This document shows, piece after piece, positions 10,029-40,667 of a DNA stretch of 41,864 nt. This DNA comes from Chiloscyllium plagiosum (taxonomy: Eukaryota): assembly GCF_004010195.1 (NCBI RefSeq), contig NW_025215231.1, forward strand, positions 5,170-47,033, given 5' to 3'. Under the pieces are notes generated by a model. The model saw only the letters and a program-made list of their open reading frames with translations, was not told the DNA's origin and ran no database searches. Every line of letters begins with the position of its first letter. Within the stretch, counting starts at the first letter, position 1. The translations under genes were made by a program, and so were the position numbers.

Positions 10029-13000
10029 ATAGAACGTAGAACATAGGACAGTACAGCACAGAACAGGCCCTTCAGCCCACGATGTTGTGCTGACCACTGA
10101 TCCTCATGTATGCACCCTCAAATTTCTGTGACCATATGCATGTCCAGGAGTCTCTTAAATGTCCCCAATGCCCCTCCCTCCACAACTGCTGCTGGCAACA
10201 CATTTCACGCTCTCACAACTCTCTGTGTAAAGAACCCGCCTCTGACAGCCCCTCTATACCTCCCTCCAACCAGCTTAAAACTATGACCCCTCGTGTTAGT
10301 CATTTCTGGGAAATAGTCTCTGGCTATCGACTTGATTTTTGCCTCTCATTATCTTGTATATCTCAATTAGGTCCCCTCTTCTCTTCCTTTTCTCCAATGA
10401 AAAAAGTCCGAGCTCAGTTAACCTCTCCTCATAAGATAAACCCTCCAGTCCAGGCAGAATTCTGGTAAACCTCCTCTGAACCCTCTCCAAAGTATCCACA
10501 TCTTTCTTATAATAGGGCGACCAGAACTGAACGCATTATTCCAAGTACAGTCCAACCAAAGTTTTATAGAGCTGCAACAAGATCTCAGGACTCTTAAACT
10601 CAATACCCCTGTTAATGAAAGCCAAAACACCATATGCTTTCTTAACAAACCTGTCCACTTTGGTGGCCATTTTAAGAGATCTAAGTACCTGCACACCAAG
10701 ATCCCACTGTTCCTCCACACTGCCAATAATCCTATCCTTAATCCTGTACTCAGCTTTCAAATTCGACCTTCCAAAATGTATCACCTCGCATTTATCCAGG
10801 TTGAACTCCATCTGCCACCTCTCAGCCCATCTCTGCATCCTGTCAATGTCCCGCTGCATCCTACAACAGCTCTCTATACTGTCAACGACACCTCCAACCT
10901 TTGTGTCATCTGCAAACTTGCTGACCCATCCTTCAATCCATTCATCCAAGTCATTAATAAAAGTTACAAACAGTAGAGGCCCAAGGACAGAGCCCTGTGG
11001 AACACCACTCACCACAGACTTCCAGGCAGAATATTTTCCTTCTACTACCACTCGCTGTTTTCTGTTGGCCAGCCAATTCTGTATCCAGACAGCTATGTTC
11101 CCCTGAATCCCATTCCTCCTGACCTTCTGAATGAGCCTACCATGGGGAACCTTATCAAATGCCTTGCTGAAGTCCATATACACCACATCCACAGCTCGAC
11201 CCTCACCAACCCTTCTCGTCATGGCCTCAAAGAACTGTATAAGATTAGTGAGGCATGACCTGCCCCTCACAAAGCCATGTTGACTGCATTTAATCAAGTC
11301 ATGCTCTTCCAGATGGTCATAAATCTTATCCCTCAAAATCCTTTCTAACACATTGCAGACAACAGACGTGAGACTTACCGGTCTGTAATTGCCGGGGATT
11401 TCCCTATTTCCTTTCGTGAAGAGAGGAATTACATTTGCCTCTCTCCAGTCCTCAGATACGACTCCAGTGGAGAGCGAGGATGAAAAGATCTTCGCAAGTG
11501 GAGAAGCATTTCTCGTTTCCCAAAGCAGCCGGCGACAAATCTGATCAAGGCCTGGCGACTTGTCAATCTTAATGTTTAACAAAATTTTCAGCACATCAGC
11601 TTCCTCTATCTCTATCCATTTCAGCATGCACACCTGCTCTTCAAAGGTTTCATTCACTACAAACTTCATTTCTTTCGTAAAGACAGAAGCAAAAAACTCA
11701 TTGAGGGCTTCCCCTACCTCCTCAGACTCCACACACAAATTCTCTATGCTATCCCTGATCGGGCCTACTCTTTCTTTGACCATTCCTTTATTCCTCACAT
11801 AAGTGTAAAATGCCTTTGTATTTTTCCTCATCCGTTCTGCCAAGCATTTCTCGTTCCCCCTCCTGGCTCTCCTCAGACCATTTTTAAGTTCCTTCCTTGC
11901 CTGCCTGTAATCCTGCCATACTAGTTTAAACCCTCTCGAACTACTCGTGCAAAACTTCCACCCAGGACATTGATCCTCTTCCAGTTCAGATGCAACCCGT
12001 CCTTCTTGTACAGGTCCCACCTTCCCCAGAAGGCAATCCAATTATCTACATATCTGAATCCCTCCCTCCTACACCAGCTGCGCAGCCACGTGTTAAGCTT
12101 CGCCTGCTCCCTGTTACTCGCCTCGCTATCTCGTGGCACCGGTAGTAAACTAGAGAACACTACTCTGTTCGTCCTGCTTTGCAGCTTCCATCCTAATTCC
12201 CTGAAATCACTTTTTATATCCTCGATCCTTTTCCTGGCTATATCATTAGTGCCAATATGTAACAAGATTTCTGGCTGTTCGCCCTCCCCTTTTAGAACCT
12301 TATGCACCCGATCGGAGACGTCCCGGACCCTGGCAACATACCTTCCGGGAATCCCGATCGTCACCACAAAATCTCCTGTCGATTCCCCTAACTATCGAGT
12401 CCCCTACCATGAATACTTTCCTATTCTGCCCCCTTCCCTTCTTTGCCACAGTGTCAGGCTCAGTGCCAGAGAACAGACTGCTATGGTTTTCCTCTGGTAG
12501 GTCATCACCCCCCCGAGCAGTATCCAAAGCGGTATACTTATTGCTGAGGGGAATGTCCACAGGGGATCTCTGCACTGTCTGACTGTCCTTTTTCCTCCCC
12601 CCTAACTGTAACCCATTTATCCTTGTCCTGAGCCTTAGGAGTGACTAACTCCCGGTAACTCCTCTCAATTACCCCCTCAGCCTCTCGAATGATCCGTATT
12701 TCATACTTTTCCAGCTCCAATTCCCTAACATGGTTTTCAAGGAGCTGGAGTTGGGTGCACCTCCCACAGATGTAGCCAGCGGAGACGTGTGCCATGTCTC
12801 CCAGCTGCCACTTTCGGCAGGAGGAGCAAGCAACTGCCCGAGCATCCATACCCGGCTTATCTGAACACCCACTCAGTACTAAAGTAGAAAGCTTAGTTCA
12901 ACTTGCTATAAAATTAAGAACAAACTTATATTCAATAGAGGAAGTTTAGAATGAACATTAACTTATTAACTAGGTTAGAGGAGGAGGGCGGTGGGAGACT

Positions 13001-13101
13001 CTACAGTAATAGAGTCTCGGGTCTTAGCCTTGCTGATATATATGGTCACTGCTTTCCTTCCCGGCTGACCCTCTGGTCCTCGTCACTCCACCCGCTGCTC
13101 C
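10029..13101 (-). mobile_element. CR1 LINE with 5' UTR, ORF1 and RT but lacking the endonuclease domain (internal deletion near 11912)
   Basis: 3' tail (ttctatg)n at 10029. Open RT frame 10536-~11910 (PGNYRPVSLTS, QHGF, DFSKAFDKV, GVPQGSVLGP, FADDTK). Frameshifted ORF1 12849-11921 with CxxC..CxxC, a leucine zipper and SGNH blocks GDS, GTND and DGLH. Confidence 0.92.
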
Positions 13102-15925: not shown

Positions 15926-18900
15926 GAACATAGAACATTAAACATTACAGCACAGTACAGGCCCTTCGGCCCTCGATGTTGCGCCGACCTGTGAAACCAA
16001 TCTCAAGCCCATCTAACCTACATCATTCCATGATCATCCATATGTTTATCCAATGACCATGTAAATGTTCTTAAAGTTGGCAAGTCTGCTACTGTTGCAG
16101 GCGGGGCATTCCATGCCCCGACTACTCTCTGAATAAGGAAGCTACCTCTGACAGTAAAGCTCTGTCCCTTCGTACCAGCCATCTCCATTCAAGGAAAAGG
16201 ACTTTCACTGTCCACCCTATCTAATCCTCTGATCATCTTGTATGTCTCTATGAAGTCACCTCTCAACTTTCTTCTCTCTAACAAAAACAGCCTCAAGTCC
16301 CTCAGCCTTCCCTCATAAGACCATCTCTCCACACCAGGCAACATCCTGATAAATCCTCTCTGCATCCTTTCCAATGTTTCCACATCCTACTTTTAATATC
16401 AGAACTGTACGCAATACGCCAAGTGCGGCCGCACCAGAGTTTTGTACAGCTGCAACATGACCTCATGGCTCTGAACCTCAATCACTCTACTAATTAAAGC
16501 TAACACACTGTGCGCTTTCTTAACAACCCTATCAACCTGGGTGGCAACTTTTTGGGATCTATGTACATCGACACAGAGATCTCTATGCTCACCACACCAC
16601 CAAAGCCTTTAACCAAGTATTCCGTATTCCTGTTCCTCCTTCCAAAATGAATCACCTCACACTTTTCTGCATTAAACTCCACTTGCCAAATCTCAGCCCA
16701 GCTCTGCAGCTAATCTTTGTCCTTTTGTAACCTGCAGCATTTTTCTGCACTGTCCACAACTCCACTGACCTAGTGTCATCCGCAAATTTAATGAACCCAT
16801 CCTTCTACAACCTGATTCAAGTCATTTATAAAAATGACAAACACCAGTGAATGAAAAACAGATCCTTGTGATACACCACTAGTAACTGAACTCCAGGATA
16901 AACATTTCCCATCAACAACCACCCTTACAGCTCACCAATTTCTGATGCAAAAAGCTAAATCACCCTCAATCCCATGTCTCCATGCCTCCGTATTTTGTGC
17001 AATAACATATCATGGAGACCCTTATCAAAAGCCTGACTGAAACCAATATCCACCACATTGACCACCTAATCTGCTGCTTGGTTTGTCAGGCACGATCTAC
17101 CCTTCACAAAACCATGTTGACTAGCCCTAATCAACTTCGTCCTTTCTGGATGATTGAAGGATGATTATAAATCTGAACTCTTATAACTTTTTCCAACACT
17201 CTATCCACAATCGAAGTAAGGCTCACTGGTCTATAAATGCCAGGGTCGTCTCTACTCCCCTTCTTGAACAAGGGAACAACTTTTACTGTCCTCCAGTCTT
17301 CTGGCACCATTCCTGTAGACAATGATGACATAAAGATCAAAGTCTCCGCAATCTCCTCTCTGGCTTCCCAGAGAATCCTACAATAAATCCCCTTCAACCC
17401 AGGGGACTTATCTATGTTCACACTTTCCAGAATTGCTAACACTTCCTCTCATGAACCTCAATCCCGTCTTGTCTAATAATCTGGATCTCAGTATTCTCCT
17501 CGACAACATTGTTTTTTTCAGTCTGAACACGAATGTGAAATATTCATTTACTGCCTCTCCTATCTCGTCAGACTTCACGCACAACTTCCCATTATTGTCT
17601 TTGTCTGGTCCTAATCTTAATTTAGTCATTTTTTAATTCCTGATATACTGATAGAAAGCTTTTAGGTTTTCCTTGATGCGACCTGCCAAAAACTTCTCAT
17701 ATCCCCTCCTGGCCCTTCTTTGCTTTCTCTTTTGGTCCTTCCTGGCTAATTTGTAACTCTCAAACACCTAACTGAGCCTTCATGTCTCATCTTTACATAA
17801 GCCTCCTTCTTCCTCTTAACAACAGACACAACTTCTTTACTAAATCAAGGTTCACTCGTTCCACTACCTTCTTGCTGCCTGACAGGTACATACTTATCAA
17901 GGACATGTAGTAGCTGATCCTTGAAAAAGCTCCACATTTCAATTGTGCCCATCCTCTGCAGTTTCCTTCCCATCCTATGCATCCTAAATCTTGCCAAATC
18001 ACAGCATAATTACCTTTCCCCCAACTATATCACTTTCCCTGCGATATATCCCTGTCCCTTTTCATCACTAAAGTAAACGTAACCTAATTGTGGTCACTAT
18101 CACGAAAGTGCTCACCTTCCTCCAAATCAAAACCTGGACGGGTTCATTATCTAGTACCAAATCCAATGAGGCCTCGCCCCTTGTTGGCCTGTCTATATAC
18201 TCTGTCAAGAAATGCTCCTGCACACATTGGACAAAAACTGACACATCTAAAGTACTCGAACTACAATGTTTCCAGTCAATACTTGGAAAGTCAAAGGCCC
18301 CCATAGCAACCACTCTATTACTTTCTCTCCTATCCAGAATCATCTTTGTAATCCTTTCCTCTACATTTCTGGAAGCCAACAGAAAACCCCCAACAGCATG
18401 ACCTCTGCTTTCTTGTTTCTAACCTCAGCCCATTCTACCTCAGTGGACCAGTCCTCATCAAATGTCCTTTCTGCCACCATAACACTGACCTTAACGAACA
18501 TAGCCACACCTCCCCCTCTTTTACCACCTTCCCGGTTCTAACTGAAACATCTCAACCCTGGAACTTGTAATAACCATTCCTATCACTGCTCGATCCAGGT
18601 CTCTGAAATGGCTACAACATTGAAGTCCCAACCCATGCTGCAAGGTCACCCACCTTATTCTGGATGCTCCTGGTGTTGAAGTAGACACACTTGAAACCAA
18701 ATTCCTTCCTGCCGCTGCATTCCTGCAACCTTGAAAGCCTATTCCGGACCTTATTGTTCTCCACCTCCTGTGCACTGATGCTACAATTCAGGTTCCCATC
18801 TCCTGCTTTATTAGTTTAAACCCTCCCAAAGAGCATTAGCAAACCTGCCCCCAGGTTAGTGTACCTCTCTGGTTCAGGTGTAGACCATCCTGTTTGTAGA

Positions 18901-20030
18901 AGACCCACCTACTCCAGAATAAGCCCCAATTATCCAGGTACCTAAATCCCTCCCTCCTGCATCATCCTTGTAGCCACATGTTCAACTTTTCTCTCTCCCT
19001 ATTCCTTGCTCGCATGCGGCATAGGTAACAAACCAGAGTTGACATCTCTGTTTGTTTCAGCTCTAAACTTCCACCCTAACTCCCTGAATATCTGCTTTAA
19101 AACCCCATCCTTTTTCCTACCCATGTCGTTGGTGCCTATGTGGACCATGAGTTCGGGCTGTTCCCCTTCCACCTCAAGGATCCAGAAAACACGATCTGAG
19201 ATGTCATGAACCCTGGCACCTGGGAGGCAGCACATCAACCCTGATTCTCTCTCGTTCCTACAGATTCTCCTATCTGTCCCCTCACTGTAAAGTCCCCAAT
19301 GACTAATCCTCTGCTCCTCTTTCACTCCAAACAACAAAGAGCCAAGAAACTTTACAGCCCAAGAACAGGCCCCTCAGCCCTCCAAGCCTGAGCCAACTCA
19401 AACCTACTCTCTAAACCTGTCGCCCAATTCATAAGTATCTGTATCCCTCTGTTCCCCACCTACTCATGCATCTGTCCAGTCGCATCTTAAATGAATCTAA
19501 CATACCTGCCTCTAATACCTCTGCTGGCAATGCATTCCAGACACCTACCATCTTCCGTGTAAAGTACTTGCCGTGTGTATCCCCCCTTAAACTTTTCACC
19601 TTTCACCTTGAAAGCGTGACCTCTCATTACTGACTCCTTCACCCTGGGAAAAAGCTTATCTCTATCTACCCTGTCTATACCCTTCATACGCTCAATCAGG
19701 TCCCCCCTCAATCTTCTTTTTTCTAATCCTTCCTTTCTGAGCAACATGGACAGATTCTGTGCCAGAGACCTGTGCCCCATTGCTTACCCCTGGTAAGTTG
19801 TCCCTCCCCAGCAGTAACCAAAACCGTATGCTTGTTATTGAGGGGAACGGCCACAAGGGAACTCTGCACTGTCTGCCTGTTCCTTTCTGTCTCCTGACTG
19901 TAATCTACCTTTTCCCTCGTACTTGAGGTGTGACTACCTCCCTGTAACTCCTCTCAATTACTCCCTCAGCCTCCCGAATGATCCGAAGTTCATCCAGCTC
20001 CCTTACCGTTTCTGAGGAGCTGAAGTTGCC
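15926..20030 (-). mobile_element. Near full-length, 5'-truncated decayed CR1 LINE (ORF1 esterase, APE endonuclease, RT)
   Basis: Tail at 15926. RT remnants 16189-17442, endonuclease remnants (DFPSIDW, PTRGEASLDLVL) 18068-18379, and SGNH ORF1 CCLPGARVHD...HIGTND 18999-19337. Many disablements. Confidence 0.9.
19335..19728 (-). mobile_element. 5'-truncated CR1 3' fragment nested in ORF1 of the preceding element
   Basis: LEKRRLRGDLIE...DRDKLFPRV...RGHAFKV plus 3' UTR. Same subfamily as 26478-26895. Confidence 0.8.
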
Positions 20031-20354
20031 CAGATCTTACTGCAGAGCCACATGGAGGGCTTCAGGGAAAAATGCTGCTGAACATTGTGTGAGTATTAGC
20101 GAACCCTCGGACTCATGACATTCTGCCTGAGGGAAGGTCAGTGATACAGTCACTAAAGATCGTTAGGGCTGGGACACAATCTTGAGGACCTCCTGCTGTG
20201 ATGGCCTGGAGCTCAGATGGCTGACTTCCACCAACCGCACCAATTGCTGTGGGTCTGGAGTCACATGTAGCCCAGACAAGACAAGGACAGCCCTAATCCC
20301 TAAAGGGAATTAGAGAACCAGATGGGTTTTAACAACAATTGACAATGGTTTTGT

Positions 20355-23415: not shown

Positions 23416-24194
23416 GTAAGCTTTGGAACAACTTACATAAACCACTGAATTGAATCATCCTTATTTCTACAGATAACTGATAAATTATTATATTTCCATT
23501 TTGCAAGGCAAATCCTGATGTCAGACATTAGTGTCCTCACTGACTGAGTTTAAAGTGAATAGTTTGTCAGTTCGGAGGCTCCTCAGTAATGTGCAGCATT
23601 GTGTGTTTCCCTATACTGTGCAGAATGGGTTTACACTGAGGTCACATTGATGGAGTTTGGCTGAGCACCGGCCCTGGCTGGTCTAGAAAGGGTTTCGGAA
23701 GACCACCCTCTCTCTGTGGTAGTTCACAGCCTGCTATCGGTCAGACATGTTTTGTAACAACCCACCTCGCAGTGACACCTGGTGTTTCCCATTCCTTGAT
23801 GGAAAGGGATTGTGTTGATGGATCTTGTTCAGGCAGCTTGCTCCAAATGGGTGGGTTCAGCAGGTCATTAGGAATTAGGAAATAATGGGGACTGCAGATA
23901 GGGCGATGTGCTGGAAAAGGCACAGCAGGCAAGATTGCATCTGAGGTGCAGGCGAAATCGATTGCTGCTGACCCAAAAACATCCTGAGTATGTGACTGTG
24001 TTTCTGTGAGTAATCTGCTGCTCATGTTCTTCCCTGTGTCCTTTAAAAGAGCAAATGATTCATTGAGAGAGATTTTTTAAACTTCATATAACATGGAACA
24101 ACAATTATCTTTGTGTCATTAATTACAGTCTGGGCTCACGTACAGAGAATGTTTCATTAGTGACTTCAAATCTATTTTTTACTTTCTCTTACAG

Positions 24195-25081
24195 TTAATC
24201 TCGTGGTGATTGTAATCTTAGCTCGGGGCAAATGTGGTCTTTCTACATGCAGCACTCGCTACCTGGTGGCCATGACAATGTCAGATCTACTGTTCATTGT
24301 TTTTTATATCATTCTTCACCTATTTAGAAACCGATATTGTCCACTGTGTTTCCTGCAAATCACTCCTGTTTGTGGTGCTATCTATGCACTCAACCGCTTG
24401 AGCATTGATTGGTCTGCGTGGTTCACCATTGCTTTTTCCTTTGATCGATTTGTTGCCATTTGTTTACATGAGATGAAAACTAAGTATTGCACAGGGAAGA
24501 CTGCAACCAGGGTTCTAGCAATAATCTCCATCTTCTTTTTTTTAAAGAACATTCCCAACTCCTTTGTGTATTACCCTAGAAAGATTATCAATAATGTTCC
24601 ATGGTACTGTTATATTAGGCCTGGTTATTTTAATGACCCGCTGTGGATAGGTTTTAAATATTTTCAGACTTTTTTAACACCAATGTTCCCATTCACCTTT
24701 ATTCTCTTTATCAACATCCTGACTGTCAGACATATCTTCGAGGCCATTAAGGTGCGGAAAGAACTGAGAGGTCAGAGAAAAACAGAGATTGATCCAGAGG
24801 TAGAGAGCAGGAAGAATTCTGTGATTTTACTCTTTGCCATATCTGCCAGCTTCATACTTCTCTGGTTGTTGCATATTTTAGATTTCTTTAATGCTGGTTA
24901 TTCCTTGGATTCTGTTTCCTATCGTCTCTTTGTTCAGATTGGATATATGCTGAGGAACTTAAGTTGCTGCACAAATGCCCTTACTTATGTGGTGACACAG
25001 AAACATTTCAGAGACCAGTTAAAGTACGCGATGACATATCCAGTTAGAAAAATAATTCAATTGATGAATCAATCCAAGTAA
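24195..25081 (+). CDS. GPR139/GPR142-like class A GPCR, coding exon 2 (spliced protein 317 aa, intact)
   Basis: Acceptor ttttactttctcttacAG (24193-24194). Motifs: ARGKCGLS, TM2 YLVAMTMSDLL, TM3 FSFDRFVAIC, ECL2 Cys (WYC), TM6 FILLWL, TM7 NLSCCTNALTY, helix 8 KHFRDQL. No stops. A paralog of the family rather than a demonstrable GPR139 ortholog. Confidence 0.88.
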
Positions 25082-36289: not shown

Positions 36290-36533
36290 AGACCCAGTTG
36301 TGCAGAGGAGAGAGAGGAATGGAGTGGGGGTGTCAGGGAGAGAGAGAGTGGGACTCAGTAATGTGAGGGAGAGTGTGGGAGCCGGCAGTGTGAGGGAGAG
36401 AGTGTGGGAGCGGACAGTGTAAGGGAGAGAGAGTGGGAGCGGGCAGTGTGAGGGAGAGTGAGTGGGAGCGGCAGTGTGATGCAGAGAGAGAATGAGAGTG
36501 GGCAGTGTGAGGGAGAGAGAGAGTGGGAGAGCA
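36290..36533. repeat. GA-rich minisatellite (about 30-33 nt unit GAGAGAGAGTGGGAGCGGGCAGTGTGAGG); continues at 40668-40720
   Basis: About 7 imperfect units to the left of the CR1 and about 1.5 units to the right. Confidence 0.85.
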
Positions 36534-39500
36534 AAGCCGGTCGGGAGGGTAAGTGATTATTTGAGTGGGTGTGTTCTGGAACCTAGGTCCTCCAAAGTAG
36601 GGCCTCCCTCCCTCCCTCCTCCTCTAACCTAAATTAAATGTTCACAGAATTGCCCCCAAAAAGAGGGTCAAAGGCAGTTCCTGTGGATTGAAGAGTGAGG
36701 CTTCAGCTCAGGAGTCTTTGACAAGCAGGTTGAGTGAAGTGATTACGCCACAGTTGAAGAGGGTGAAGACATGGCTGCCAAGCTGCTTCAGTGTGCTACG
36801 TGCTTGATGTGGGAGGTCAACGACTCTGGTGTGTCTGGCTCGTATAAGTGTGGAAAGTGCGTGCACGTTCAGCTACTGACAGAACCTATTGCAGCACAGA
36901 TGAAAGAACTCGAGGATCTTTGTCTCATCCGAGAGAACGAGATATTTCTGGACAAGACCTTCAGTGAGGTTATTACACCAATCGTACCAGAAGAGAGCAG
37001 AAGAGAGAGCAGATGATGAGGAAGGCAGAGAGGAGACAGGTGCAAGAGACCCCGGCGGAAGTACCTGTCAGGAACAAGTTGAAACTTTTGGAAACAGTAG
37101 AGACAGATGACACTGCCAGTCCGCGAGGCGGCCAGGTCTGTCAATCAAAGGTTGGCGCAGAGGCAGAGCGGAAGAGTCGGACTTTGCGCAGAGCCGGGGT
37201 AATAGGGGACTCCACAATGAGTGGAACGAACTGGGCTTTTTGTGGCAGCAGGCGGGACTTAAGGATGGTGTGTTGCCTTCCTGATGCCAGGGTTAAAGAC
37301 ATCACAGACAGATTGCAGGACATCCTCAAGGACGAAGGTGAAGAGCCAGAGGTGGTGGTACAAGTCGGCACAAATGATGGCGGGAAGAAGACGAGGAAAG
37401 TACTACAGCGGGACTTCGGAGAACTGGGAAGAAGGCTGAAAAGCAGGACGTCCAAGGTGGTTATCTCCGGTTTGTTTCCACTTCCTCGGGCTGGTGAAGG
37501 CAGAAACAGGGAGATAATGGACTTGAACATGTGGCTGGGCAACTGGTGCAGGAAGCAAGGATTTAAATTCTTGGATCACTGGGTTATGTTTAGTAGTAAG
37601 CATAAATTCTACAATAGAGGTGGTTTGCACATTAATAGGTTAGGGACCAGCATTCTGGCAGGCAGGTTTGCTACTGCAACGCAGCTACGTAGTGGGGAGG
37701 GGAATGGGGGTGGCGGGGGGGGGGGGAAACAAACTGGATGTTTAAAAAGGAAATTGGAGGGAAAGTTAGAACAAGGGAAGTCAAGAAAGACAATTGTATC
37801 ATTTCTGTATCAATGAAACAGAAAACTCAAAAAGGGATCATGCTGTAAGGTTGAGTGAAATAGGAGTTGATGGGAAGGGTGAGGGCAGTAACAAATTAAA
37901 AATACTATATATGAATGCACGAAGCATTAGAAATAAGATGGATGAGCTTGAGGGTCTTTTGGAAATTGGCCGATACGATATAATGGGGGTAACTGAGACG
38001 TGGCTTCAAGTGGACAGGGCCTTGGAAATGAATATTCAAGGCTACACGTGCTATCGTAAGGACAGACTGACGGGCAGAGGGGGTGGGGTGGCCATGTTGG
38101 TAAGGGATGATATTCAGTCCCTTGCGCGGGGGGACCTAGGATCAGGGGATGTAGAGTCAGCGTGGATAGAGCTGAGAAATACGAAGGGTAAAAAGACCCT
38201 CTTGGGAGTTACCTACAGGCCCCCAGTCTGGATGCCGGATGTAAGTTAAATCAGGAGCTGAAATTGGCCTGTCGCAGAGATGTTACTGCAGTTGATATGG
38301 GGGATTTCAACATGCAGGTAGACTGGGAGAATCAGGATGGTATTGGACCTCAAGAAAGAGTTTTGTGGAGTGTCTCAGAGATGGATTCTTAGAACAGCTG
38401 GTGTTGGAGCCGACCAGAGAGAAGGCAATTCTGGATCTGGTATTGTGCAACGAACCAGAATTGCTCAGACACCTCAAAGTGAAGGAGCCATTGGGAAGTA
38501 GTGACCATAATACAATAAGCTTCAAGCTGCACTTTGAGAGGGAGAAGGTACAATCGGAAGTGACAATATTTCTGTGGAATAAAGGGAATAATGGAGCTAT
38601 GAGGGAGGAGCTGGCCAAAGTTCAATGGTTCAATACCTTAGCAGGGATGACAGTGGAGGAACAATGGCGGATATAATCTGTGTATAATGCAGAAGTTGCA
38701 GGATGAGTTCATTCCAAGAAGGAAGAAAGATCCTAGGAGGAGGCAGGGGTGGCCATGGCTGATGAGGGAAGTTAAGAAACATATAAAGTCAAAAGAGAAA
38801 AAGTATAACATAGCAAAGATAAGTGGGAAAACGGAGGACTGGGAAGCTTTAGGTATGTGAAAGGCAAAAAAATGTTTAGGACTAAAATTGGGCGCTTGAA
38901 GACAGAAACAGGGTAATATATTGCGGGGAACAAAGACATGGCAGAAGAATTGAATAGGTACTTCAGATCTGTGTTCACTGGGGAACACACAAGCAATCTC
39001 CCTGAGGTAACAATAGCTGAAGGACCTGAACTGAAGGGAATTTATATTTGCCAGGAATTGGTGTTGGAGAGACTGTTAGGTCTGAAGGTTGATAAGTCCC
39101 CGGGGCCTGATGGTCTACATCCCAGGGTACTGAAGGAGGATGCTCGAGAAATCGTGGATGAGTTGGTGATTATTTTCCAGAGTTCGATAGATTCGGGATC
39201 AGTTCCTCCGGATTGGAGGGGGACTAATGTTGTACCACTTTTTAAGAAAGTTGGGAGAGAGAAAGCAGGAAATTATAGACCAGTTAGTCTGACCTCAGTG
39301 GGGGGAAAGATGCTGGTGTCTATTTCAAAGGATGAAATTACGATACATCTGGATAGTAGTAACAGGATAGGTCAGAGTCAGCATGGATTTATGAAGGGGA
39401 AATCATGCTTGACTAATCTTCAGGCAGTTTTTGAGGATGTAACTCTGAAGATGGACGAGGGAGGTCCAGTAGATTTAGTGTACCTGGAGTTTCAGAAAGC

Positions 39501-40667
39501 TTTTGATAAAGTCCCACATAAGAGGTTTGTGAGCAAAATTAGGGCGCATGGTATGGGGGGCAAAGTACTAACTTGGATTGAAAGTTGGTTGGCCTATAGG
39601 AAACAAAGAGTAGTGATAAACGGCTCCATTTTGGAATGGCAGGCAGTGACCAGTGTGGTTCCACAGTGATCAGTACTGGGACCGCAGCTTTTAAAAATAT
39701 ATGTTAATTATATAAAAGAGGGTGTTAGTAATAACATGAGCAAATTTGCTAATAATACTAAGTTGGGTGGCAGGGTGAAATGTGATTAGGATGTTAGGAG
39801 ATTACAGGGTGACCTGGGCAAGTTGGATGAGTGGGAAGATGCATGGCAGACGCAGTGTAATGTGGATAAATGTATGGTTATCCACTTTGGTGGCAAGAAC
39901 AGGAAGACAGATTACTACCTAGATGGAATCAATTTAGGTAAAGGGGCAGTACAGAGAGATCTGGATATTCTTGTACACCAGTCAATGAAGGTAAGCATGC
40001 ACGTAGAGCAGGTAGTGAAGAAGGCTAATAGCATGCTGGCCTTCATAACAAGAGGGATTGAGTATAGAAGCAAAGAGGTTCTTCTACAGCTGTACAGGGC
40101 CCTGGGTGAGACCACACCTGGAGTACTGTGTGCAGTTCTGGTCCCCAAATTTGAGGAAAGACATTCTGGTTAGTGAGGGAGTGCAACGAAGGTTCACGAG
40201 GTCAATTCCTGGAATGGCGGGATTACGTTACACTGAAAGACTGGAGCGACTGGGCTTGTATACCCTTGAGTTTAGAAGACTGAGAGGGGATCTGATTGAG
40301 ACATATAAGATTATTAAAGGATTGCGCACTCTGGAGGCAGGAAACATGTTTCCGCTGATGAGTGAGTGTCGAACCAGAGGACACAGCTTAAGATACGGGA
40401 TAGACATTTAGGACAGCGATGAGGAGAAACTTCTTCACACAGAGTGGTGGTTGTGTGGAATGCTCTGCCCCAGAGGGCAGTGAAGGCTCAGTCTCTGGAT
40501 TCATTTAAGAAAGAGTTGGATAGAGCTCTCAAGGATTGTGGAATCAAGGGTTATGGAGATAAGGCAGGAACAGGATACTGATTAAGGATGATCAGCCATG
40601 ATCATATTGAATGGTGGTGCAGGCTCGAAGGGCAGAATGGCCTACTCCTGCACCTATTGTCTATTGA
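36534..40667 (+). mobile_element. Full-length but disabled CR1 LINE (5' UTR, Zn-finger/SGNH ORF1, APE-RT ORF2, 3' tail)
   Basis: ORF1 from 36771 (CATC..CGKC; GDS, GTND, GGLH). Endonuclease LYMNARSIRNK, GVTETWL, GSSDHN. RT GNYRPVSLTS, QHGF, FQKAFDKV, with the catalytic motif mutated to FANNTK. Tail ctattgtctattg. Candidate TSD GAGAGCA at 36527-36533 and 40668-40674. Confidence 0.93.

What the first reader, a model, noticed from the sequence alone, without database searches (positions are those of the whole stretch)
36534..36650. Conserved structured motif (covarying hairpin + invariant 18-nt CT box) in the 5' leaders of two divergent CR1 LINEs
Seen: this leader and the leader of the minus-strand element (12961-13065) are otherwise unalignable, and their ORF1 proteins are clearly divergent. 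Yet both carry ACC - hairpin - short C-rich spacer - CCCTCCTCCTCTAACCTA, identical at 18/18 nt (36614-36631; reverse complement at 12971-12988). Hairpin A is GAGACTCTA-ttactg-TAGAGTCTC, a perfect 9-bp stem (12995-13018). Hairpin B is AGGTCCTCC-aaa-GTAGGGCCT (36585-36605). Aligned, the stems show two compensatory changes (A-U to G-C, U-A to C-G) and one C-G to U-G wobble. Inference: a selected cis-element of shark CR1s, such as an internal promoter, an RNA structure for translation/packaging/splicing, or, on the opposite (cDNA) strand, a GG-run quadruplex-duplex junction. It does not fit the HDV-like or hammerhead ribozyme topologies known from retroelement ends, and I know of no description of it.
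Basis: partly seen in the sequence, partly recalled or inferred. Interest (0 to 1): 0.7.

Follow-up and report, generated by a model that had tools for sequence, protein, structure and literature searches.

The report
Conserved hairpin-branch-box in shark LINE leaders
Many otherwise divergent families of a shark jumping gene keep the same 60-letter hairpin-plus-C-rich module between their promoter repeats and their first gene, and it likely acts on the RNA as a weak, rarely used intron-end signal rather than as a self-cutting RNA.

Summary
The 16-nt box occurs 1,682 times in the genome (control 4) and sits behind the same 10-bp hairpin in at least eight CR1 leader types. The two window copies share only 30% identity over the first 75 ORF1 residues. 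The module is larger than reported. An AT-rich patch lies at near-fixed distance upstream; the box ends in a branch-point-like CTAAC; an AG follows 11-14 nt later (91 of 111 copies); and splice donors flank it. Covariation is real but rests on about four independent double changes, and three family-level mismatches exist. The leaders are not wholly unalignable. The C-run spacer is missing in 8 of 70 family-B copies, which weakens quadruplex and poly-C-only ideas. Best reading (0.4): an RNA module that likely mimics a weak intron 3' end. One genomic copy is joined exactly donor-to-AG, but microhomology deletion could explain it (10-18% chance). Function is untested; RNA data were uninformative. 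Nothing reached Rfam's thresholds and my paper searches found no description. This scan noted what is probably the same module in another genome (e1-9856610).

The parts
36307..36529 (+). 29-bp purine-rich minisatellite standing where family-B copies have a promoter monomer
   Evidence: compare family copies
36535..36554 (+). Element B: end of monomer-type segment with 5' splice donor (GT at 36549-36550)
   Evidence: family form is the donor joined in L334
36558..36565 (+). Element B: AT-rich patch (TATA- or initiator-like), first T 27 positions before the stem
36581..36606 (+). Element B: ACC plus hairpin (5' arm 36584-36593, loop 36594-36596, 3' arm 36597-36606)
36607..36631 (+). Element B: C-run spacer and box; branch-point-like CTAAC 36624-36628 (A at 36627)
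36632..36647 (+). Element B: A/T-rich run; the family AG at +13 is mutated to TG in this copy (36639-36640); second CAG at 36645-36647
36771..37816 (+). Element B: ORF1 (CxxC..CxxC N-terminus, GDSL/SGNH esterase), broken by a frameshift
   Evidence: PF13472, E 4.8e-8
38917..39669 (+). Element B: ORF2 fragment with reverse transcriptase
   Evidence: PF00078, E 3.1e-13
13051..13089 (-). Element A: monomer remnant with ETS/CRE-like word (label recalled) and a dead donor (GA for GT)
13035..13044 (-). Element A: TATA-like patch
12995..13022 (-). Element A: ACCC plus hairpin (12995-13018)
   Evidence: (z -2.9 for the 69-nt region)
12962..12994 (-). Element A: spacer, box (12971-12988; branch-like A 12975) and AG at +13 (12963-12962)
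12906..12961 (-). Element A: leader-intron-like stretch (family donor decayed in this copy) ending in a TAG acceptor-like site
10536..12849 (-). Element A: broken ORF1 (esterase) and ORF2 (reverse transcriptase)
   Evidence: PF13472 E 5.6e-11; PF00078 E 2.7e-30

Best explanation
This is a ~60-nt module shared by at least eight CR1 leader types, lying between the promoter repeats and ORF1, and it likely works on the nascent sense RNA as a weak intron 3'-end mimic. Shown: an AT-rich patch, ~20 variable nt, ACCC, a 10-bp stem with a CUAC/GUAG core and a variable loop, a C-rich pyrimidine run ending in CUAAC, an AG 11-14 nt further on, and donors upstream and (in most types) 11-33 nt downstream of the box. 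Inferred: the hairpin would bound and present the pyrimidine strand; branch-point and poly-C readers (SF1/U2, PCBP-type) would bind it; the AG sits at the edge of the zone that bound U2 blocks and has no pyrimidine tract in front of it, so splicing would rarely complete. The element would then attract splicing factors, which may help transcription, stability or export, while almost always keeping the unspliced RNA that carries its promoter.
For: AG ends at +11..+14 from the branch-like A in 91 of 111 box-anchored copies, with a peak of 66 at +13, although the 11 nt between are only 0.59 identical across families. [quoted passage not shown] One genomic copy (L334) joins the family-B donor exactly to that AG and loses 95 nt that begin GT and end AG; the junction was predicted before the search. 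Four copies (L034, L039, L046, L068) lack an 87-nt GT..AG stretch of the promoter monomer exactly, so leader splice sites seem to have been used at least once. The stem core folds at 0.99-1.0 probability in 11 of 14 representatives. G.U outnumbers A.C 49 to 15. PCBPs enhance acceptors through C-rich tracts and associate with U2 snRNP (PMC4797308, abstract). Distance from box to ATG varies from about 50 to 147 nt, while distance to the AT-rich patch is mostly 27.
Against: Only 1 spliced-like copy was found against about 625 family-B copies, and the looser search found the same one. None was found for the second B acceptor or for family D (0 against 624); the A/C search gave one non-LINE chance hit. 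Microhomology deletions touch the module in 9 of 140 ORF1-anchored copies, and the L334 junction has 3 nt of microhomology, so chance per junction is about 10-18%. 20 of 111 copies lack the AG at +11..+14, including a whole D subfamily and family E. U2 pairing with the box is only the generic 4-bp core (-0.3 to -0.5 kcal/mol). In context the box is often predicted to pair with upstream purines (mean unpaired 0.16-0.74). The AG could simply be inherited. Covariation rests on about four independent double changes, with U.U, A.C and C.C family-level mismatches.
Confidence: 0.4

Rival explanations
1. It is a DNA-level downstream promoter element. The CCC-N-CCC runs are SP/KLF-type sites (motif recalled) at a fixed distance from a TATA box or initiator, and the palindrome is kept by a dimeric factor or by template-switch repair.
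For: The first T of the AT-rich patch lies 27 positions before the stem in families A, B, D and H and 25-29 in E, F and G, while the sequence between diverges. C runs are kept while linker letters vary among G, T and A. In upstream monomers, copy 5' ends fall about 31 nt after TATA, so these are promoter repeats.
Against: Spacing is 23 in family C. The C-run spacer varies from 0 to more than 20 nt and is absent in 8 of 70 family-B copies. Pair changes pass through G.U states, which a duplex-DNA reader would not need.
Confidence: 0.25
2. It is an RNA platform unrelated to splicing: hairpin plus C-rich strand bind PCBP/hnRNP K-type proteins or ORF1p to set translation, stability or packaging.
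For: Stable stem with variable loop; C triplets with variable linkers; always upstream of ORF1.
Against: Distance to the ATG is not fixed. The C triplets are recurrently lost while CCTCTAACC and the AG stay. It does not explain the AG peak at +13.
Confidence: 0.2
3. It is inherited sequence kept alike by recombination: leaders swap parts by template switching at this shared stretch, with little selection on its function.
For: Chimeric leaders switch type at or near the box (for example L062, L043, family C). Upstream monomers are also related between families. Samples were chosen by the box or by ORF1 starts of two families, so lineages lacking it were not counted.
Against: Family B differs from the others on both sides (0.36 and 0.41 identity) and inside the stem (0.60, 0.76) yet keeps the pairing and the box; ORF1 starts of the two window copies are 30% identical in protein.
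Confidence: 0.1
4. It is a self-cleaving ribozyme, or a quadruplex-duplex junction on the cDNA strand that acts during integration.
For: The antisense strand holds two or three GGG runs plus GG runs. 10 of 90 copies have their 5' end within the spacer or hairpin.
Against: No Rfam family reaches its threshold. Those 5' ends are scattered from -3 to -27, at a rate within about twofold of neighbouring windows. Loops are unconserved, so no pseudoknot partner exists. The GGG runs are lost in 8 of 70 family-B copies.
Confidence: 0.05

Closest known systems
Chondrichthyan canonical CR1 with esterase ORF1 (PMC13343379; passages read)
   Same: ORF1 with GDSL/SGNH esterase followed by a reverse-transcriptase ORF2.
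   Different: The word 'UTR' occurs once in the main text, about repeating subunits in ORF1-less elements; 'motif' and 'promoter' do not occur. Supplements were not read.
Human L1 5' UTR splice sites and SpIREs (PMC5860796; abstract, outline and section 7 read)
   Same: Splice signals in a LINE leader; rare spliced copies in the genome (about 2% of full-length L1PA1-6); splicing costs the promoter.
   Different: Here spliced-like copies are at most 1 in about 625, and the branch-like site is part of a hairpin module shared across families rather than subfamily-specific.
Amniote CR1 5' UTRs with E boxes and 32-bp repeats (PMC2734521 and PMC4316615; passages read)
   Same: CR1 5' UTRs act as promoters, hold repeats and are replaced between subfamilies.
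   Different: The conserved words described there are E boxes; the conserved CR1 hairpin described is in the 3' UTR. No 5' hairpin-CUAAC module appears in the passages seen.
PCBP (alphaCP)-enhanced acceptors with C-rich pyrimidine tracts (PMC4797308; abstract read)
   Same: A C-rich tract near an acceptor that could link poly-C proteins to U2.
   Different: In this module the tract lies before the branch-like site and the stretch before the AG is A-rich.
Mouse L1 monomer array plus tether
   Same: Tandem promoter monomers in front of a retained unique segment before ORF1.
   Different: No hairpin-CUAAC-AG module is known to me there; not tested.

Membership tests
CR1 LINE with esterase ORF1 | ORF1 with SGNH/GDSL esterase | tested here: met
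   PF13472 above its cut-off in both elements
CR1 LINE with esterase ORF1 | ORF2 with reverse transcriptase | tested here: met
   PF00078 in both
CR1 LINE with esterase ORF1 | RT phylogeny in the CR1 rather than the L2 clade | not tested
   no tree built
Conserved structured RNA motif | Two-sided compensatory changes across lineages | tested here: inconclusive
   3 of 10 pairs; 86 of 500 shuffles reach that count; cell count and score 0 of 500 but inflated by relatedness; about four independent double changes
Conserved structured RNA motif | More conserved than its flanks | tested here: met
   0.78-0.94 vs 0.47-0.49 among 8 representatives; box itself selected by the search, but present in ORF1-anchored sets
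Spliceosomal intron 3' end (U2 type) | Branch-point word yUnAy | tested here: met
   CTAAC ends the box; pairing with the genome's U2 limited to the 4-bp core
Spliceosomal intron 3' end (U2 type) | Pyrimidine tract between branch point and AG | tested here: not met
   the 11 nt are A/T-rich; the tract lies upstream; family E is an exception with its own later tract
Spliceosomal intron 3' end (U2 type) | Spliced product observed | tested here: inconclusive
   1 genomic copy; 0; microhomology chance 10-18%
U12-type intron | UCCUUAAC-type branch site and GTATCCTT-type donor (consensus recalled) | tested here: not met
   box has an extra C; flanking donors are GTAAG/GTAGG type; only the short spacing resembles U12
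HDV-like or hammerhead ribozyme | Match to Rfam models | tested here: not met
   no hit near a gathering score
HDV-like or hammerhead ribozyme | Nested double pseudoknot or hammerhead core | tested here: inconclusive
   0 hits in 14 representatives on both strands, but my descriptor had no positive control
HDV-like or hammerhead ribozyme | Self-cleavage in vitro | not testable with these tools
   needs a bench assay

The most novel reading that the evidence does not exclude
Shark CR1s carry a structured decoy 3' splice site: a hairpin-bounded C-rich tract, a branch point and an AG placed too close to be used, flanked by donors. It lets an intronless retroelement recruit U1 and U2 as if it were a spliced gene, to gain expression and escape silencing of intronless RNA, while almost never being spliced.
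Probability: 0.2. Interest if true: 0.75.

Novelty: new variant of a known kind. Interest (0 to 1): 0.48.

Why it matters
LINE 5' leaders are usually replaced wholesale between subfamilies, so a module that survives promoter turnover marks a host interaction the element cannot drop. CR1-group elements make up 22-34% of elasmobranch genomes (PMC13343379, passage), and 1,682 exact copies of the box place branch-point- and donor-like signals throughout this genome. If the decoy reading holds, it gives a compact natural reagent for testing whether spliceosome binding without splicing licenses intronless RNA. If it is a promoter element, it defines the core of the shark CR1 promoter.

Tried and rejected
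RNA: the run search listed no holder on record as RNA. In raw run X19, 173 reads were laid on a family-D copy; most had the first mate on + and several began with poly-T at the element's T runs, which points to antisense, internally primed RNA, and depth on the other strand was 0-9. X20 gave 0 reads on a family-B copy. No GT..AG joint and no start or end pile-up appeared in either lay, so these are no test of splicing or start sites. Metagenome scan: 119 exact hits; none of the rows I could see had the hairpin (output partly cut). A U2 snRNA-mimic idea (3' arm GUAG pairing with the box in place of U2) was rejected: -0.3 to -5.1 kcal/mol against -6.4 to -17.0 for the hairpin. RT stalling at the hairpin: 10 of 90 ends in 31 nt, not clearly above background. 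L043 as a splice product of family 5: the deleted stretch does not read GT..AG in any register. A transcript start inside the 5' arm (TATA+31): only 1 of 90 copies starts there (L037). Papers: the exact 16-mer is in none; 12-mers in DNA or RNA letters hit 9 papers whose titles are unrelated; topic searches gave no listing on a CR1 5' hairpin module. Repbase, Dfam, Haas 2001, Kajikawa 1997 and all supplements were not seen and could mention it.

Full report
Observation. Both motifs are present as described. The 16-nt box has 2 exact hits in the window and 1,682 in the genome against 4 for the reversed control. Both window elements are LINEs with an esterase ORF1 and a reverse-transcriptase ORF2. 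Their first 75 ORF1 residues are 30% identical.

Sampling. I read 90 of the first 100 listed box hits, 19 further hits from a search for boxes not followed by T (the other 11 loci repeated earlier ones), and the two window copies: 111 in all. Independently I read 70 of 625 family-B and 70 of 624 family-D copies anchored on the ORF1 start. The box-anchored copies fall into at least eight leader types, which I call A-H.

Anatomy. Copies begin with one or more promoter-like monomers that hold a GGAAGTGA word, a GTAAG donor and a TATA box. Copy 5' ends cluster at monomer starts (-131 to -143 from the box in B and C types), about 31 nt after the TATA of the preceding monomer where one is present. 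The labels ETS/CRE, initiator and the TATA+30/31 rule are recalled. After the last monomer comes an AT-rich patch whose first T lies 27 positions before the stem in A, B, D and H, 25-29 in E, F and G, and 23 in C. In some types it matches the monomer TATA; in others it looks like a monomer start. Then follow about 15 unconserved nt, ACCC, the 10-bp stem, a 7-nt C-run spacer, the box ending in CTAAC, an A/T-rich run and an AG. In 7 of 12 family representatives a donor follows 11-33 nt after the box, with an intron-like stretch before the ATG.

Conservation. Among 8 real representative copies, mean identity is 0.47 upstream, 0.47 between patch and stem, 0.94 for ACCC, 0.78 and 0.86 for the arms, 0.72 for the spacer, 0.59 for the 11 nt after the box and 0.49 downstream. 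In the ORF1-anchored sets, 49 of 70 D copies and 46 of 70 B copies hold box and hairpin core. Most of the rest are 5'-truncated, 9 of 140 have internal deletions touching the module, and 8 of 70 B copies lack the spacer and the first box letters, so the hairpin abuts CCTCTAACC. The shortest retained form is therefore hairpin + CCTCTAACC + AG. Contigs from runs labelled as two other organisms also cover the module.

Structure. I aligned 78 of the first 92 copies, dropping 14 with truncated, deleted or duplicated modules. 91.8% of cells pair; 3 of 10 pairs change on both sides, which 86 of 500 shuffles also reach; cell count and covariation score beat all 500 shuffles but count related copies many times. 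RNAalifold recovers 5 of the pairs. By family, position 4 is A-U, G-U or G-C, position 5 C-G, U-G or U-A, and position 6 A-U, C-G, U-A or U.U; position 1 is C.C in B and position 3 is A.C in H. About four independent double changes all keep pairing; single changes keep it about as often as chance would. G.U outnumbers A.C 49 to 15 in the 73 copies with an intact core, a mild pointer to the sense RNA. Loops vary freely. Nothing in Rfam matches.

The splice-like end. The AG ends at +11..+14 from the branch-like A in 91 of 111 copies, with 66 at +13. A D subfamily and family E lack it, and the window's B copy has TG there. AGs closer than 12-18 nt to a branch point are described as hindered by bound U2 (PMC5378181, passages). 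I searched for five predicted junctions. B donor to the +20 CAG: 0. D donors to +13: 0 and 0. A/C: 1 hit with 3 control hits, not a LINE. B donor to +13: 1, the same locus in a looser search. That locus, L334, keeps the monomer and exon and lacks exactly the 95-nt GT..AG stretch holding the module, like an L1 SpIRE (PMC5860796). But the junction has 3 nt of microhomology, there are about 300 such possible products, and 30-60 deletions are expected in the family, so chance is 10-18% per junction. It is a hint only. Separately, four copies lack an 87-nt GT..AG stretch of the monomer exactly, probably one founding splice event. RNA lays were uninformative.

Mechanism. Shown: the module, its conservation across leader types, its position and spacing. 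Inferred: that it folds in the nascent RNA, binds branch-point and poly-C readers (precedent for PCBP-U2 links in PMC4797308, abstract), and is a poor acceptor because the AG is close and has no tract in front of it. Selection would favour this if splicing-factor binding helps the RNA while completed splicing removes promoter sequence. In A and E types the nearest upstream donor reads GA instead of GT, which fits pressure against completed splicing. I give this 0.4; a DNA promoter element 0.25; a splicing-independent protein platform 0.2; recombination-maintained inheritance 0.1; ribozyme or quadruplex 0.05.

Novelty. The element class and splice signals in LINE leaders are known. I found no description of this module in the searches listed under Tried and rejected, but Repbase, Dfam, two older CR1 papers and all supplements were not seen. 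This scan noted what is probably the same module in another genome (e1-9856610) and orphan donors in shark CR1 leaders (e1-9078445); both are unchecked AI notes, seen after my reading was recorded. Verdict: real, conserved and undescribed in what I could search, with function untested. New variant of a known kind, interest 0.48.

Noticed in passing
L034, L039, L046, L068 leaders vs L067, L042, L071: A subfamily lacks an 87-nt GT..AG stretch of the promoter monomer exactly, as if a spliced RNA founded a lineage that kept amplifying. The same subfamily carries two tandem copies of the module, the second with an expanded C run.
   Followed up: partly
L334 (G000:C30:36971029): SpIRE-like CR1 copy joined donor to AG with the whole module missing.
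   Followed up: yes
monomers, e.g. L024:1277-1310, L008, L003, L055: Donors (GGTAAG) are often followed within 15-30 nt by their own complement (ACTTACC), which could fold back and hide the donor from U1.
   Followed up: no
L062, L043, L072, L060, family C leaders: Leaders are mosaics that switch family type at or next to the box, which suggests template switching between CR1 families.
   Followed up: partly
   Followed up: partly
window 36307-36529: A 29-bp purine-rich minisatellite replaces the usual monomer in front of element B; it may be an expanded, decayed monomer piece.
   Followed up: no
window 18900-20080 (-): A third esterase-ORF1 LINE, truncated inside ORF1 and interrupted by another LINE 3' piece; it has no module.
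   Followed up: partly
window 24164-25081 (+): A 305-aa single-exon frame that looks like a seven-transmembrane receptor (judged by eye).
   Followed up: no
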